From Ilumatobacter sp. (GTDB taxonomy: Bacteria > Actinomycetota > Acidimicrobiia > Acidimicrobiales > Ilumatobacteraceae): a stretch of DNA of 64,000 nt. The stretch spans positions 65,869 through 129,868 of the forward strand of contig NZ_JBKAGH010000009.1 in assembly GCF_046290335.1 (NCBI RefSeq), given 5' to 3'. This document shows, in pieces, positions 38,503 through 43,867 of this stretch. The notes beneath the pieces were generated by a model, which ran no database searches, was not told the DNA's origin, and was given only the letters and a program-made list of their open reading frames with translations. The stretch's first letter is position 1; each line of letters starts with the position of its first letter. Position numbers and translations under genes: made by a program.

Positions 38503-38631
38503 ACCTCATGTATGAATGTCGGCCCGACGACACGTGGGCTTGACGGCCTCGTCCCGAGGCTGACGATTCCTTGATCGTCGCACCACCCTCCGCGGCCGGT
38601 TCGCGGACTGCGAGCGCCTAGCGTGCGACCC

Positions 38632-39489
38632 ATGGGATTCCGATTGGCCAACATCGACGGCCGAGCAGCACTACTCGACGACCGAGATCGGTACCACGAC
38701 CTCGAGTCACTCAGCGGCGGTGCGATCGGATCCGACCCGATGACCGCCCTGGCCGACGAAGCCGGGGTGCGCGCTGCCACCGAACGGCTCGCCGACGCCG
38801 AGCCGACCGGCGAGCTCGCCGACGTGGTACTCGGCGCACCCGTCCCGCGCCCGCGCAACGTGTTCGCCGTCGGGTTGAACTACTCCGACCACGCCGCCGA
38901 GTCGAACCTCACCCCTCCCGAGCAACCGTTGGTCTTCACGAAGTTCCCGTCGAGCATCTGCGGTCCGGCGACCGACATCGAACTGCGCAGCGAATTCGTC
39001 GACTACGAGGTCGAGGTGATCGTCGTGATCGGGCGGGGAGGCCACGACATCAGCGAGGCAGACGCGTGGTCGCACGTCATCGGCCTGACGATGGGCCAGG
39101 ACGTCTCCGATCGTCGCATGCAGTTCGCTTCGAGCCCGCCCCACTTCGACCTCGCGAAGTCGTTCGACACCTTCGGGCCGATGGGGCCATGGTTGCGGTC
39201 GCTCGACGGATTCGACGACCCCGACTCGCTCCGATTGACATGCTCCGTCAACGGCGACCTCCGCCAGGACGGCAACACCGGCGACCTCATCTTCGGCGTT
39301 CCGAAGCTGATCAGCTATCTCTCGCACATCACCACGCTGAGCGCCGGCGACATCATCTGGACCGGCACGCCGGCCGGTGTCGGCGCAGCGACAGGAGCGT
39401 TCCTGCGCGACGGCGACGTGGTCGAGACCTCGGTGACCGGGCTCGGCACCATGACCAACCGCTGTGTCCGAATCGGAGACCACGCGTGA
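38632..39489 (+). CDS. Fumarylacetoacetate hydrolase family protein
   Basis: AVGLNYSDHAAE, VFTKFPS, DYEVE, QDVSDR, AKSFDTF, TGTPAGVG. Confidence 0.9.
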   Translation: MGFRLANIDGRAALLDDRDRYHDLESLSGGAIGSDPMTALADEAGVRAATERLADAEPTGELADVVLGAPVPRPRNVFAVGLNYSDHAAESNLTPPEQPLVFTKFPSSICGPATDIELRSEFVDYEVEVIVVIGRGGHDISEADAWSHVIGLTMGQDVSDRRMQFASSPPHFDLAKSFDTFGPMGPWLRSLDGFDDPDSLRLTCSVNGDLRQDGNTGDLIFGVPKLISYLSHITTLSAGDIIWTGTPAGVGAATGAFLRDGDVVETSVTGLGTMTNRCVRIGDHA

Positions 39490-40586
39490 CCTCGTCGCAC
39501 CACGACTCGACCTCCACGACGCCGAGCCAGCCGACGAGCCCGCCGGTCGTGGTGTTCATGGTCGCGTTCCCCGCTCCTCCGGCGCTCGCCGAATCCCTCA
39601 CGGCGATCCATCCCGACGCCGAGTTGCTCTGGACGCCCTACACCGAATCCGAGGCGCTGCGATCCGCGCGGGGGCACCACGGCGGCCGGAACCCCGACGG
39701 ACTCGAGACGCCGGAGATCACCGACGAGATGCGCGCCCATTGGCAACGCGCCACGATCGCCGTCGCAATGGACCTGCCCGAAGGTCTCGACGAGTTGATG
39801 CCGAACCTCCAATGGGTGCAGAGCATCACGGCCGGCGTCGACAAGTACGACCTCGACGCATTCGATCGACAGGGTGTGCTGCTCACCAACGCCAGCGGTC
39901 TCGGTTCGGCCGGCATCGCCGAGTTCGTGATCGCCCGCCTGCTCCAGGAGTGGAAGAACCTCCGCACGTTCGACGCGCAGCAGCGCGAGCATCGCTGGGA
40001 GGGCATGTTCGGCACCGAGCTCACCGGACGCACCCTGGGGATCGCTGGTCTCGGCGCGATCGGCCGCGAGGTCGCTCGCCGTGCGCGAGCGTTCGACATG
40101 ACCGTGCTCGCGACGCGCGCCAGCGCGAAGCCCGGTGACACCGACGATGCCGTCGACGAACTGTTCCCGGCCGACGCTCTCGACGAGATGCTCGCTCGTT
40201 GCGACGCCGTCGTGTCGACGTTGCCGTCCAACCCGTCGACGATCGGGCTGTTCGACGCCGACCGGTTCGCCGCCATGCCAGCTGGCTCGCTGTTCTGCAA
40301 CGTCGGGCGAGGGGCCCACGTCGTCGAAGCCGACTTGATCGCCGCGCTCGAGTCCGGTCACCTTCGCGCTGCGGCCCTCGACGTCACCCACGTCGAACCG
40401 CTCCCCATGGACGATCCGCTGTGGGACGCTCCGAACATCTACATCTCGCCGCACTCGTCGGTCTCGCTCGACCGTTACGTCCAGAACCTCGAGGCGCTGT
40501 TCGTGGCGAACCTCGGCCACTTCTTCGCCGCCGAACCGCTCGTCAACGCCGTCGACACGGCCGACACGGCCGACACGAACTCATGA
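39486..40586 (+). CDS. D-2-hydroxyacid dehydrogenase
   Basis: GTGA overlap with the FAH gene. GLGAIG, NVGRG, LDVTHVEP, SPHSS (R/E/H catalytic set). Confidence 0.9.
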   Translation: MTSSHHDSTSTTPSQPTSPPVVVFMVAFPAPPALAESLTAIHPDAELLWTPYTESEALRSARGHHGGRNPDGLETPEITDEMRAHWQRATIAVAMDLPEGLDELMPNLQWVQSITAGVDKYDLDAFDRQGVLLTNASGLGSAGIAEFVIARLLQEWKNLRTFDAQQREHRWEGMFGTELTGRTLGIAGLGAIGREVARRARAFDMTVLATRASAKPGDTDDAVDELFPADALDEMLARCDAVVSTLPSNPSTIGLFDADRFAAMPAGSLFCNVGRGAHVVEADLIAALESGHLRAAALDVTHVEPLPMDDPLWDAPNIYISPHSSVSLDRYVQNLEALFVANLGHFFAAEPLVNAVDTADTADTNS

Positions 40587-40596
40587 ACGAACCGGC

Positions 40597-40995
40597 ATGA
40601 ATTTGTCCGACTGGCTCGACGACACCGATGCGCTGGCGGCACTCGACGCTGCGTATGCAGCGGCGTGGGCCTCGACCGACGCTGAGCTTCTCGCGCTGTG
40701 CCGAGACCGGATCGCGATGCTGCTGCGTCACGGGCCGACGGTCGAGGCGATGACCGACGACGATCGTCGCGAGCTCTCCCGCTGGGCCACCTCCGCCACG
40801 TTCACCGATCGCGAACGCGCCGCGCTCGACTTCACCGAGCAGTACGTGGTCGACGTCGCCGCGATGTCCGACGAGCAGGCCGGGCGGTTGCGTGAGCACC
40901 TCGGCGACGAAGAGCTCGTGAGTTTCGTCAACGCGATCCTCGTGCTCGAACAACGAATGACGCTCGAACTCGCCTTCGCCGGAGTGCTGCCGTGA
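40597..40995 (+). CDS. CMD/AhpD-like protein lacking the CxxC motif
   Basis: LCRDRIAMLL, FTDRERAALDFTEQY, LREHLGDEELV follow the CMD helical pattern; only one Cys. Confidence 0.75.
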   Translation: MNLSDWLDDTDALAALDAAYAAAWASTDAELLALCRDRIAMLLRHGPTVEAMTDDDRRELSRWATSATFTDRERAALDFTEQYVVDVAAMSDEQAGRLREHLGDEELVSFVNAILVLEQRMTLELAFAGVLP

Positions 40996-41519
40996 ACGCG
41001 TCGCCGCGCCCGGATGGAGCGTCTCGTTCGGCGCGCGTCGCCGCCGGAACACGAGCCGCACCCGCACTCGTCGGCGCGCTGATGGACTTCGCAGCCGCGG
41101 CCGTACGCAACGACCGTGTCGACCCCATCACCACCGAACTCGTTCGGCTGCGCTGCGCGACGGCGCACGACTGTCGTACTTGACTGTCGCTGCGCTCGGC
41201 AGTTGCCGAGCAACATGGTCTCGACGAAGACCTCGTCGCTCAACTCCACGCACCCGACCCGCAGCTCACCGATGCACACGTCGCAGCGATCGACTTCGCA
41301 ACTGCGATGATCGTCGACCCGGCCGGCATCACGGCGGAGCTCGGCGACCGGCTGCACCAACACTTCACCACGGGGCAGATCGTCGAACTCGCGCTCGACG
41401 TCATGAAGTGGAGCTACCAGAAGGTGACCGTCGCGCTCGGCACCGACCGCGAGATCGTTCCGGGCCAACTCACGCCACTGCGCTTCGACGACGACGGCAA
41501 CTGGATCCGCCCCACCTGA
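40992..41519 (+). CDS. CMD/AhpD-like probable selenoprotein (CxxU, Sec at residue 64 of 175); split into two ORFs in the track
   Basis: ORFs 40992..41183 and 41307..41519 are in the same frame with no other stop between them. Reads ELVRLRCATAHDCRT-[TGA]-LSLRS...AAIDFATAM...HFTTGQIVEL. A SECIS-like hairpin follows the TGA. Confidence 0.8.
41184..41220 (+). promoter_or_regulatory. Putative bacterial SECIS element
   Basis: 7-bp stem GCTCGGC (41194-41200) / GCCGAGC (41205-41211) with apical loop AGTT, 17 nt after the UGA; a weaker lower stem is possible. Confidence 0.7.
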
Positions 41520-41641
41520 CCCCCACCGATGAGCTTCATCCGCTCGCTACCGGATCATCCTCATCGCTTCGAGGTGCTCTGCCTCGGGGGTCACCAGAGC
41601 ATCGTCGTACGATCGCAGGAACACCTGGAAGAGGGATCGAC

Positions 41642-43867
41642 ATGACGAGCACCATCAACGAAGTCAGCATCGACGCACCGAGCGACAACGACGCGGCGAT
41701 CGAGGTGAAGCGATCGTTCTGCCGGATCTGCCACGCGGCCTGTCCGATCGACGTGCACCTCGACGGCAGCCAGGTCGTCAAGATCAGTGGCGTCGACGAC
41801 GATCCGCTGTTCAAGGGCTACACGTGCATCAAGGGTCGCCAGATTCCCGACCAGATCCACGATCCCGCCCGACTCCGCCATGCGCTCAAGCGCAGTCCGA
41901 ACGGCACGCTCGAGGAAGTCGCGAGCAGCGACGCTCTCGACGAGGTGGCCGCGAAGCTCCACGCGATCCTCGACGAACACGGCCCGCGTGCCATCGCCTC
42001 CTACACCGGCACCGGCGGCTACCAGAACGCACCGTCGCACCCCGTGGCGCAGGCGTTCCACCGGGCGGTCGGCTCCATCAGCTACTACACGTCGGTCACC
42101 ATCGACCAGCCGATGAAGGCCACTGCGCCGATGCGCATGGGCATGTGGGAAGCGGGCCCGCAGAACTTCAGCACCGCCGACGTCATGTTGGCGATCGGCT
42201 ACAACCCGATGGTGTCGAGCTTCGCTCCCTACGGCGGCCTCCAGGGCACCGACCCGTTCCAGACGCTGCGTCGCCGCAAAGCCGAGGGCCTCAAGGTGAT
42301 CGTCATCGACCCGCGCCGCACCGAACTCGCCAAACAGGCCGACATCCATCTCCAGGTGAAGCCCGGCGAAGACCCTGCGCTGCTCGCTGCGCTCCTCCAC
42401 GTGATCCTCACCGAGGACCTCCACGACGCGGCGTTCTGCGACCGCTGGGTCGAACCGGGCCATCTCGACGTGCTGCGGGCGACGGTCGAGCAGTTCACGC
42501 CCCACTACGCCGCCGAGCGGTGCGGCGTCGACGCCGACGACATCGTCGCGGCCGCCCGGCTGTTCGCCGCGGGCCCGACCGGGTCGAGCGGGTCCGGAAC
42601 CGGGCCGAGCATGTCGCCGCACGCCAGCTTGATGGAACACCTGTCGCTGTGTCTCAACGTCGTTTGCGGGCGCTACCTACGCGAAGGACAGCAGATGGAC
42701 TCGGGGGGTCTGTTGCCACCCGCCGCGCCGAAGCGAGCGCAGGTCATCGGCCCGTTCGGCAACCCGAAGGGCCCTCAGAGCCGATTTCGCGGGCTGCACG
42801 GCTACAACGGCGAAATGCCCTGCTCGACGCTGGCACAAGAGATCACCACGCCCGGCCCCGAACAGGTGCGAGCTCTGATCGTCAACGGTGGCAACCCCGT
42901 GGCTGCCTGGCCGGATCAGATCAAGTCCATCGCTGCGATGGAGTCACTCGAGTTGCTGGTCGTGATCGACCACCGCCTCACCCAGACCGCCGACTACGCC
43001 GACTACGTCTTCGCGCCGCGCTTGTCGCTCGAGCGTGCCGACGTTCCGCCGTTCATGGACCGCTGGTTCCGCGAGCCCTACGCCTGCTACACGCCCGCTG
43101 TCGTGACCGAGCCCGAGGGCGACCTGCTCAACGACTGGGAGGTCTACTGGGAGATCGCCGAACGACTCGGCGTCGACATCGAACTCCCGGGCGGGTCGAT
43201 TCCGCACCGTCACGCCGACGGGTCACGGCCGAGCGATGACGACGTCCTCGACCTCGTCTACGCGAAGTCTCGGGTGCCGTTGTCAGAGGTGCGCGCGAAG
43301 AACGGCACGGTCGTGCCCGAGTACGCGATCACCGTCTCGCCGGCAGATCCGGATGCATCGGGCCGGTTCCACGTCGCGCTCGACGACCACATGGAGGAGT
43401 TGCACGCCGTCCGTAGCGAGACGACCTCCGCCGAGGTGATGGCGGGGTTCGACCCGGCGGTCCACACCTTCCGACTGATCAGCCGGCGGTTGAAGTCGCA
43501 CCTCAACTCGCTCGGCCGCGAGCTGCCCGGGCTGGCTCGCAAGAACTCGACCAACTACGCGTACATGCATCCCGCCGACCTCGACGACCTCGGCATCGCC
43601 GACGACGACCTCGTACGGATCGCTTCCCCCCATGCCGAGTTGATCGGTGTCGTGAAGGGTGCTCCCGACGTGCGCCGCGGCGTCATCTCGATGGCGCACA
43701 GTTGGGGCTCGTCGAACGGCACCGACGAGAAGGTGCGCGACATCGGCGCACCGACCAATCGACTCATCGACGTCGACAACGGCTACTGCACGATCACCGG
43801 CCAAGCGGTCCAGAGCGCGATCCCCGTCAGCGTCGAACCCGTGAGCGAGGACGCACTCCTCCCCTGA
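41642..43867 (+). CDS. Cytoplasmic molybdopterin (DMSO reductase family) oxidoreductase with an N-terminal [4Fe-4S] site
   Basis: CRICHAAC...CIKG, GYNP, VIDPRRTELA, VNGGNP, TADYADYV, C-terminal RR...NS, MHPADL. No Tat signal. Confidence 0.9.
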   Translation: MTSTINEVSIDAPSDNDAAIEVKRSFCRICHAACPIDVHLDGSQVVKISGVDDDPLFKGYTCIKGRQIPDQIHDPARLRHALKRSPNGTLEEVASSDALDEVAAKLHAILDEHGPRAIASYTGTGGYQNAPSHPVAQAFHRAVGSISYYTSVTIDQPMKATAPMRMGMWEAGPQNFSTADVMLAIGYNPMVSSFAPYGGLQGTDPFQTLRRRKAEGLKVIVIDPRRTELAKQADIHLQVKPGEDPALLAALLHVILTEDLHDAAFCDRWVEPGHLDVLRATVEQFTPHYAAERCGVDADDIVAAARLFAAGPTGSSGSGTGPSMSPHASLMEHLSLCLNVVCGRYLREGQQMDSGGLLPPAAPKRAQVIGPFGNPKGPQSRFRGLHGYNGEMPCSTLAQEITTPGPEQVRALIVNGGNPVAAWPDQIKSIAAMESLELLVVIDHRLTQTADYADYVFAPRLSLERADVPPFMDRWFREPYACYTPAVVTEPEGDLLNDWEVYWEIAERLGVDIELPGGSIPHRHADGSRPSDDDVLDLVYAKSRVPLSEVRAKNGTVVPEYAITVSPADPDASGRFHVALDDHMEELHAVRSETTSAEVMAGFDPAVHTFRLISRRLKSHLNSLGRELPGLARKNSTNYAYMHPADLDDLGIADDDLVRIASPHAELIGVVKGAPDVRRGVISMAHSWGSSNGTDEKVRDIGAPTNRLIDVDNGYCTITGQAVQSAIPVSVEPVSEDALLP

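What the first reader, a model, noticed from the sequence alone, without database searches (positions are those of the whole stretch)
40992..41519. Hidden selenoprotein: CMD/AhpD-like gene with CxxU and a SECIS-like hairpin
Seen: an in-frame TGA (41181-41183) sits exactly at the second Cys of the family's CxxC (H-D-C-R-T-U). The frame stays open for 111 more codons of CMD-like sequence. A 7-bp hairpin with loop AGUU begins its loop 17 nt downstream. Known: bacterial SECIS elements have a G-containing apical loop about 16-37 nt after UGA, and AhpD-like selenoproteins were reported from marine metagenomes. Inference: Sec insertion; pipelines would call a pseudogene or two fragments. selA/B/C/D are not in this window.
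Basis: partly seen in the sequence, partly recalled or inferred. Interest (0 to 1): 0.9.

Follow-up and report, generated by a model that had tools for sequence, protein, structure and literature searches.

The report
Selenocysteine AhpD-like gene, truncated in databases
The in-frame TGA is almost certainly a real selenocysteine codon in a small AhpD/CMD-like redox protein that nearly all Acidimicrobiia carry and that databases list only as a 109-residue fragment; it is a correct re-annotation of a known kind of selenoprotein, not a new mechanism.

Summary
Window 40992-41519 (+) is a 175-codon CMD/AhpD-like gene with TGA (41181-41183) at the second position of HDC-R-T-U. 111 open codons follow. 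A 7-bp hairpin has its AGUU loop starting 17 nt after the TGA.

The TGA is not an error or decay:
- 79 of 80 species-representative genomes, all Acidimicrobiia-type MAGs at 46-73% identity, have TGA at this codon; one has TGC.
- dN/dS is about 0.2 before the TGA and 0.4 after it.
- These genomes use TGA as an ordinary stop codon elsewhere.

The hairpin is conserved, with compensatory changes in 4 of 7 pairs. Its loop is always AGUU or GGUC. GGUC is the loop of the E. coli fdhF SECIS, at almost the same distance from UGA. The sister Cys clade lacks the hairpin. The predicted fold (pLDDT 94) matches AhpD-like PA0269.

Published tables list SelD, SelA and SelB, and 10-15 selenoproteins, in cultured Ilumatobacter.

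CxxU CMD/AhpD-like selenoproteins have been known since 2005, so I rate this a new member of a known kind, of modest interest. A CxxC-less CMD-like partner gene is always coupled upstream.

The parts
40992..41519 (+). Complete selenoprotein gene: 175 codons (GTG start, UGA = Sec at codon 64, stop TGA 41517-41519), AhpD/CMD-like fold
   Evidence: Pfam CMD. AF2 model pLDDT 93.8. Foldseek hits to PA0269/AhpD-like structures, TM 0.6-0.79.
41172..41183 (+). Redox motif C61-R-T-U64 (TGT CGT ACT TGA); the Sec codon is 41181-41183
   Evidence: Aligned with CxxC of Cys homologs and with Cys48/Cys51 of PA0269. TGA in 82 of 83 distinct orthologous sequences.
41194..41211 (+). Upper SECIS hairpin: stem 41194-41200 / 41205-41211, tetraloop AGUU 41201-41204 (G41202 and U41203 invariant in the family)
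   Evidence: 89.8% of cells paired. 4 of 7 pairs have changes on both sides. Slid controls give 27-46% against 81% for the whole two-helix structure. The loop is AGUU in 63 and GGUC in 19 of the 82 distinct Sec-form sequences. Same loop as E. coli fdhF. Absent in Cys forms.
41182..41220 (+). Possible lower helix of the SECIS: GACUGU (41182-41187) with AUGGUC (41215-41220), starting in the UGA itself
   Evidence: MFE fold. Only 71.5% of cells paired, with little covariation across the family, so this part is weakly supported.
40597..40995 (+). Partner gene: 132-aa CMD-like paralog without the CxxC/U motif, translationally coupled (its TGA stop overlaps the GTG start of the Sec gene)
   Evidence: hhalign to the Sec family: probability 86%, E 5e-6. 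Present directly upstream in 82 of 84 loci. 4-nt start/stop overlap in 67 of 82. Fused in frame in L055.

Best explanation
Window 40992-41519 encodes one 175-residue selenoprotein of the AhpD/CMD-like superfamily.

Proposed mechanism (inferred from the E. coli model): during translation, the UGA at codon 64 is read as selenocysteine. Sec-tRNA(Sec) is delivered by SelB, which is held on the mRNA by the hairpin starting 10-11 nt downstream. The RGUY tetraloop of that hairpin presents an invariant G-U at nt 22-23 counted from the U of UGA.

Proposed function: the product carries a C61-x-x-U64 redox centre at the start of a helix, with an invariant Glu49 and an invariant Arg68 in place of the His of the AhpD proton relay. 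It most likely acts as a thiol/selenol oxidoreductase, reducing a peroxide or a disulfide. It probably works with the CxxC-less CMD-like protein encoded immediately upstream, as a heteromeric pair equivalent to the fused two-domain homologs.

Shown here: the codon, its conservation, the RNA structure, the fold, and the gene pairing.

Inferred: actual Sec insertion, SelB binding, the substrate, and the complex with the partner.
For: (1) UGA at a Cys position. HDCxT-U aligns with HDCxxC in 21 Cys-form relatives and with the CAYC motif of PA0269.

(2) Conservation. TGA is present in 79 of 80 species genomes, down to 46% protein identity, including low-GC marine lineages whose true stops are TAA or TAG. 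On a tree built without the motif columns, the Sec forms lie on one side of a single branch, which fits one Sec/Cys change.

(3) Both halves are translated. Median dN/dS is 0.19 for the 26 codons before the UGA and 0.37 after it. A single confident fold (pLDDT 93.8) runs across the UGA.

(4) TGA is otherwise a stop. The gene's own stop and the partner gene's stop are TGA.

(5) SECIS. The stem covaries. Loop positions G22 and U23 are invariant. Loop nt 1 and nt 4 switch together, AGUU to GGUC, at least 6 times on the tree. The Ala+6, Val+7 and Ala+8 codons use only GCA/GCG, GTT/GTC and GCC/GCT, whereas another invariant Ala uses all four codons. The E. coli fdhF SECIS fetched here has loop GGUC at nt 22-25. 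The four sister-clade Cys genes have no such hairpin.

(6) Machinery in the genus. Table S1/S2 of PMC5029168 lists SelD+, SelA+ and SelB+, with 15 and 10 selenoproteins, for Ilumatobacter coccineus and I. nonamiensis. A preprint finds selA/B/C/D in all 84 complete Actinomarina genomes (class Acidimicrobiia).
Against: None of these genes lies in the window or in the 83 related loci.

No reads could be laid on the site.

No Rfam SECIS family matches. This is expected, because bacterial SECIS elements are poorly covered in Rfam.

The lower helix is poorly conserved. In about a fifth of sequences the upper stem has an internal mismatch.

Sequence alone cannot distinguish Sec from another residue inserted at UGA.
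Confidence: 0.92

Rival explanations
1. Pseudogene, strain-specific nonsense mutation (TGC/TGT to TGA) or sequencing error; the gene is dead or the base is wrong.
For: TGC to TGA is a single-base change. Gene callers treat the locus as a fragment. I could not check reads (closed).
Against: The same TGA is present in 79 of 80 species genomes and in independent assemblies. Selection is purifying on both sides. No frame decay is seen in any of 82 sequences.
Confidence: 0.01
2. Two real genes: UGA terminates a 63-residue peptide, and the 109-111-residue C-terminal part is made from an internal start, as the databases annotate it.
For: Databases hold 96-112-residue products starting 2-3 codons after the TGA.
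Against: The codon used as 'start' is not conserved as a start. Where codon +3 is Leu (half of the sequences) it is CTG, TTG, CTC, TTA or CTT; in other sequences it is Val, and in the window it is CTG. Cys homologs are single chains of 162-185 residues. The catalytic CxxU motif would be cut just before its second redox residue, so the 63-residue peptide would end ...C-R-T and no product would carry the Sec/Cys position. One compact fold spans the site.
Confidence: 0.02
3. SECIS-dependent recoding of UGA to a residue other than Sec (for example Cys through a tRNA-Sec-like tRNA charged with Cys, as described for some bacteria), or low-level near-cognate read-through.
For: Sequence data cannot tell which residue is inserted. 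The own genome's tRNA-Sec and selA were not inspected.
Against: Cultured Ilumatobacter have SelA, SelB and SelD, and many selenoproteins. Keeping a costly UGA plus hairpin for over 80 species only to insert Cys, when a TGC codon would do, is hard to explain. The Cys sister clade simply uses TGC and has lost or never had the hairpin.
Confidence: 0.04

Closest known systems
CMD domain-containing and AhpD-like CxxU selenoproteins of marine metagenomes (Zhang, Fomenko & Gladyshev 2005, PMC1088965; listed again in the 2026 review PMC13188914 as 'CMD-like protein, PF02627, CxxU')
   Same: Same superfamily (PF02627 / AhpD-like). Same CxxU motif, with Sec at the second redox position. In-ORF SECIS with a G in the apical loop. 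Cys homologs are widespread.
   Different: I could not compare sequences with the published examples, so identity of the subfamily is unknown. This clade has the signature HDCxTU...R68. It has an obligate upstream partner gene and is spread across Acidimicrobiia, which the papers I read do not describe.
PA0269, the AhpD-like protein of Pseudomonas aeruginosa (PDB 2o4d, 2ijc, 7xw1; PMC3141380)
   Same: Best structural match (TM 0.60-0.79) and best PDB sequence match (E 1e-10). Its Glu36, Cys48 and Cys51 correspond to Glu49, Cys61 and Sec64.
   Different: PA0269 has Cys, not Sec. Its relay His55 is an invariant Arg (R68) here. PA0269 is a homo-hexamer of one chain, with no separate partner gene. 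Identity is only 21-23%.
E. coli fdhF SECIS (formate dehydrogenase H)
   Same: Hairpin inside the ORF just after UGA. Tetraloop GGUC with G and U at nt 23-24 from the U of UGA in fdhF. Here the loop is GGUC or AGUU with G and U at nt 22-23. The upper stem starts 10-11 nt after the UGA.
   Different: The spacing is one nucleotide shorter. No conserved bulged U equivalent to fdhF U17 is evident. AGUU is the commoner loop. Binding to SelB is not tested.
NCBIfam selenoprotein models of the same superfamily: NF053654 (YciW-related (seleno)protein), NF041047 (GSU3128 family), NF041238 (AhpD-related, Sargasso 'hypothetical protein 1')
   Same: Weak similarity over the catalytic helix pair. All are CxxU/CxxC CMD-like proteins.
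   Different: Scores are 35.8 against a cutoff of 310 and 23.2 against a cutoff of 110, and there is no hit at all to NF041238. The protein is not a member of any of these curated families. This is probably why annotation pipelines do not rescue it.

Membership tests
Bacterial selenoprotein gene (SelB/SECIS-dependent UGA recoding) | In-frame UGA at a position occupied by Cys in homologs | tested here: met
   U64 aligns with the second Cys of HDCxxC / CAYC.
Bacterial selenoprotein gene (SelB/SECIS-dependent UGA recoding) | UGA and both flanking coding parts conserved among orthologs | tested here: met
   79 of 80 species genomes have TGA. dN/dS is 0.19 upstream and 0.37 downstream.
Bacterial selenoprotein gene (SelB/SECIS-dependent UGA recoding) | Stem-loop immediately downstream of UGA with a G-containing apical loop at fixed distance, supported by covariation | tested here: met
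   Compared with fdhF. Absent in Cys forms.
Bacterial selenoprotein gene (SelB/SECIS-dependent UGA recoding) | selA, selB, selC (tRNA-Sec) and selD in the same genome | not testable with these tools
None of these genes is in the window or the loci. Indirect support: Ilumatobacter spp. are SelD+/SelA+/SelB+ in PMC5029168 Table S1.
Bacterial selenoprotein gene (SelB/SECIS-dependent UGA recoding) | Selenium actually incorporated at the UGA | not testable with these tools
   Needs 75Se labelling or mass spectrometry.
AhpD-like / CMD superfamily (Pfam PF02627) | Match to the Pfam CMD model above the gathering score | tested here: met
   28.7 bits against 23, residues 24-85.
AhpD-like / CMD superfamily (Pfam PF02627) | All-helical AhpD-like fold with the redox motif at a helix start | tested here: met
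   AF2 pLDDT 93.8. Top Foldseek hits are 2o4d, 2ijc, 2gmy, 7xw1 and 3c1l, probability 1.00.
AhpD-like peroxidase-related proteins (M. tuberculosis AhpD / PA0269 type) | Proton relay Glu ... Cys-x-x-Cys-x-x-x-His | tested here: not met
   Glu49, Cys61 and U64 are present, but the His position is an invariant Arg68 in both Sec and Cys forms (relay residues from PMC3141380). The protein works like an AhpD-type CxxC protein, but it is not a canonical AhpD.
NCBIfam selenoprotein families NF053654, NF041047, NF041238 | Score at or above the curated cutoff | tested here: not met
   35.8 against a cutoff of 310; 23.2 against a cutoff of 110; no hit. The same holds for fused and Cys relatives.
Rfam SECIS families | Covariance-model match | tested here: not met
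   No SECIS hit at the gathering score or at E up to 10.

The most novel reading that the evidence does not exclude
This may be a distinct selenoprotein family that no current catalogue or annotation model recognises (signature HDCxTU...R). In this reading it is one subunit of a two-subunit, split YciW-like redox enzyme, is near-universal in Acidimicrobiia, and arose from a single Cys-to-Sec switch. Its SECIS tetraloop, whose first and fourth bases always change together around an invariant G-U, would then show what the SelB of this class recognises.
Probability: 0.3. Interest if true: 0.45.

Novelty: new member of a known kind. Interest (0 to 1): 0.3.

Why it matters
Annotation. Every close relative in the public protein collections is stored as a 96-112-residue 'hypothetical protein' that lacks its active site. 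No curated model rescues it. Recognising the full 175-residue selenoprotein corrects the annotation in at least 79 species of Acidimicrobiia. This class is abundant in soils, lakes and the ocean, and the gene adds to the evidence that it depends on selenium.

Method. The alignment of 76 SECIS elements with clear covariation is a clean training set for bacterial SECIS models, which Rfam lacks.

Biology. The redox chemistry (CxxU AhpD-like) is of a known kind, so the conceptual gain is small. The constant pairing with a CxxC-less paralog is the one feature that could lead to new biochemistry.

Tried and rejected
Searching the own genome for Sec machinery: the genome search, the fetch from genomes and the look-up of sequencing runs were closed. 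The whole-genome test and the read check were therefore not done.

Finding the window's own record: the look-up of encoding contigs with the neighbouring molybdoenzyme found nothing on record.

Other UGA-containing genes in the window: a GC3-based scan gave only junk frames and even missed the true site, so I dropped it. The later structure-based scan found only the true site.

Sec machinery in the held DNA: tblastn with E. coli SelA, SelB and SelD and ARAGORN over the window plus 83 loci (about 565 kb) found no Sec machinery. Nothing can be concluded from so little DNA.

Rfam: no SECIS match.

A wider operon or pathway (fumarylacetoacetate hydrolase, 2-hydroxyacid dehydrogenase, molybdoenzyme): rejected as a conserved unit. 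None of these neighbours occurs next to the CMD pair in any of 83 other loci.

Membership in the YciW-related, GSU3128 or NF041238 selenoprotein families: rejected on score.

Full report
**What is in the sequence**

Window 40992-41519 on the + strand is one reading frame of 175 sense codons if the TGA at 41181-41183 is read through.
- The frame starts with a GTG whose last two bases belong to the TGA stop of the preceding 132-codon ORF (GTGA overlap).
- It reads ...RLRCATAHDCRT-TGA-LSLRSAVAEQHGLDE... and ends at a TGA stop at 41517-41519.
- The read-through product matches Pfam CMD (PF02627, 28.7 bits, gathering score 23).
- It matches three NCBIfam models of AhpD-like (seleno)proteins only weakly, far below their cutoffs.
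A possible lower helix starts inside the UGA.
- On its own the fold is only slightly better than shuffled sequence (z -1.7), so the case has to rest on comparison with relatives.

**Relatives**

A search of the protein collection returned two kinds of hit.
- All close relatives (65-73% identity, Ilumatobacter and Ilumatobacteraceae MAGs) are products of 96-112 residues that begin two or three codons after the position of the TGA.
- Relatives at 40-52% identity are full-length (162-185 residues) and have HDCxxC.

Reading the DNA upstream of two such fragments showed the same in-frame TGA and an intact, conserved N-terminal part.

A scan of one genome per species returned 80 loci. Most are titled as Acidimicrobiia or unclassified Actinomycetota MAGs, and a few bins are evidently mislabelled.
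- 79 of the 80 have TGA at this codon and one (L079) has TGC.
- Low-GC marine lineages that end the gene with TAA or TAG still keep TGA at codon 64.
- Median dN/dS is 0.19 over the 26 codons before the UGA and 0.37 after it. Both parts are therefore kept as protein.
- On a tree built without the motif and SECIS columns, the 55 Sec forms lie on one side of a single branch (SH-aLRT 86). Their sister is a small Cys clade (L079, P0010, P0014, P0025), and the more remote Cys forms lie outside.

This excludes a sequencing error or a decaying gene. It also makes a pair of independent genes very unlikely.

**The RNA element**

I aligned 76 distinct 60-nt stretches starting at the UGA; no gaps were needed.
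- The 7-bp upper stem (columns 14-20 with 25-31) is paired in 89.8% of cells.
- Four of its seven pairs show changes on both sides, for example C-G 56 / U-A 16 / G-C 3, U-A 33 / C-G 25, and G-C 67 / A-U 7.
- Sliding the 3' partners by 1-3 columns drops pairing of the whole two-helix structure from 81% to 27-46%. RNAalifold recovers the same core.
- The loop is AGUU in 63 and GGUC in 19 of the 82 distinct Sec-form sequences, with G22 and U23 invariant.
- The first and fourth loop bases never change separately. On the protein tree the switch happened at least six times.
- The loop lies in the codons Ala-Val-Ala. These use only GCA/GCG, GTT/GTC and GCC/GCT. Another invariant Ala, eight codons upstream of the UGA, uses all four codons. 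This is a constraint at the RNA level.
- I fetched E. coli fdhF as a yardstick. Its UGA (codon 140) is followed by a hairpin whose loop is GGUC at nt 22-25 counted from the U of UGA. The family here has the same tetraloop, or AGUU, one nucleotide closer.
- The four genes of the Cys sister clade have no such hairpin and read V-A/T/S-G or T-T-G where the Sec forms read A-V-A.
- The strict pattern (TGA, open frame on both sides, at least 5 bp closing an RGUY loop 14-21 nt downstream) occurs once in the window on both strands. In 501 kb of related loci only one match lies outside the family.
- The lower helix is weak: 71.5% of cells paired and little covariation.
- No Rfam family matches.

**The protein**

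With a 76-sequence alignment, AlphaFold2 gives a confident all-helical model (pLDDT 93.8, pTM 0.88).
- Its best structural matches are the AhpD-like proteins PA0269 (2o4d, 2ijc, 7xw1), Atu0492 and Mlr4105 (TM 0.55-0.79, probability 1.00).
- A profile of the family finds PA0269 at E 1e-10.
- In that alignment Glu36, Cys48, Cys51 and His55 of the PA0269 proton relay (PMC3141380) correspond to Glu49, Cys61, Sec64 and Arg68.
- Glu49, Cys61, position 64 and Arg68 are invariant in both Sec and Cys forms.
- The protein is therefore an AhpD-type CxxC/CxxU redox protein with an Arg in place of the relay His. By that criterion it is not a canonical AhpD.
- From established knowledge of M. tuberculosis AhpD, which I recall and did not test here, the second Cys of the motif is the attacking nucleophile. 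That is the position where Sec would give the largest gain.

**The partner gene**

The 132-codon ORF upstream (40597-40995) is a remote paralog of residues 68-135 of the Sec protein (hhalign probability 86%, E 5e-6). It lacks the CxxC/U motif.
- It lies directly upstream in 82 of 84 loci. The other two loci are cut by contig ends.
- The start of the Sec gene overlaps its TGA stop by four bases in 67 of 82 loci.
- In L055 the two are fused in one frame. A script indicates the same for L057 and L063.
- In the library of 50% representatives, many relatives are proteins of 280-350 residues that match in their C-terminal half, often with two matched stretches.
- The Cys sister clade has the same upstream partner.

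I infer that the two products work as one unit. This is not shown.

The other neighbours in the window (fumarylacetoacetate hydrolase, 2-hydroxyacid dehydrogenase, molybdopterin oxidoreductase) are not found beside the pair in any other locus. I do not support a wider conserved pathway.

**Sec machinery**

The window has no tRNA and no hit to E. coli SelA, SelB or SelD. The 83 loci carry only ordinary tRNAs, none of them tRNA-Sec, and likewise give no Sel hit. That is uninformative for about 565 kb of DNA.

Indirect evidence:
- The window groups with Ilumatobacter and Ilumatobacteraceae sequences.
- Table S1 of Peng et al. 2016 (PMC5029168) lists Ilumatobacter coccineus and I. nonamiensis as SelD+, SelA+ and SelB+. 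Table S2 gives them 15 and 10 known selenoproteins.
- A 2026 preprint finds selA, selB, selC and selD in all 84 complete Actinomarina genomes, which belong to the same class.
- Earlier notes of this scan also report sel operons and Sec-type selD in Acidimicrobiia. I did not verify those and use them only as leads.
- TGA is a normal stop in these genomes, including in this gene and its partner. The recoding must therefore be local, as SECIS-dependent Sec insertion is.

**Comparison with what is known, and verdict**

CxxU selenoproteins of the AhpD-like and CMD-domain kind were described from the Sargasso Sea in 2005 (27 and 4 sequences; PMC1088965). They are listed in current reviews and tables.

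The kind is therefore known, and the mechanism is the standard bacterial one.

What may be new is the particular subfamily. No curated model covers it, all database entries are truncated, and it has a fixed partner gene. I could not check whether this exact subfamily is among the selenoproteins already counted for Ilumatobacter.

I rate it as a new member of a known kind. Confidence that it is a genuine selenoprotein gene is 0.92. Interest is about 0.3.

Noticed in passing
window 40597-40995 (+); L055:2479-3450: A CxxC-less CMD-like paralog is always encoded just upstream of the Sec gene. It usually shows a 4-nt stop/start overlap. In L055 (checked by translation), and in L057 and L063 (script only), the two are fused in one frame. 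Many relatives of about 300 residues elsewhere are two-domain fusions. This suggests a split two-subunit enzyme.
   Followed up: partly
window 41201-41204 and alignment A2 columns 21-24: The SECIS tetraloop is either AGUU or GGUC, never a mixture. The first and fourth bases changed together at least six times on the family tree, while the central G-U is invariant. This may reflect a 1-4 interaction in the loop or a rule of SelB recognition.
   Followed up: partly
window 41193-41195 (Arg68 codon CGC): The His of the AhpD proton relay (His55 of PA0269, His137 of M. tuberculosis AhpD) is an invariant Arg in this whole family, in both Sec and Cys forms.
   Followed up: partly
window 38623-43867: The co-oriented neighbours (fumarylacetoacetate hydrolase 38623-39489, 2-hydroxyacid dehydrogenase about 39600-40586, molybdopterin oxidoreductase 41642-43867) are not next to the CMD pair in any of 83 related loci. 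The apparent five-gene cluster is specific to this genome.
   Followed up: yes
L028, L031, L034, L040, L047, L051 (titled Bifidobacterium), L067 (Neomarinimicrobiota), L049 (Frankiales): Several MAG records carrying the gene have titles that do not fit. The sequences sampled in the tree (L028, L031, L040, L047, L049, L067) group inside the Sec clade with Acidimicrobiia-type sequences, so these bins are probably mislabelled.
   Followed up: no
L001:12146-13526 versus L002:12146-13525: In two near-identical contigs an amidohydrolase is called as one 459-residue gene in one assembly and as two pieces (115 + 351 residues) in the other. This is probably an assembly frameshift.
   Followed up: no
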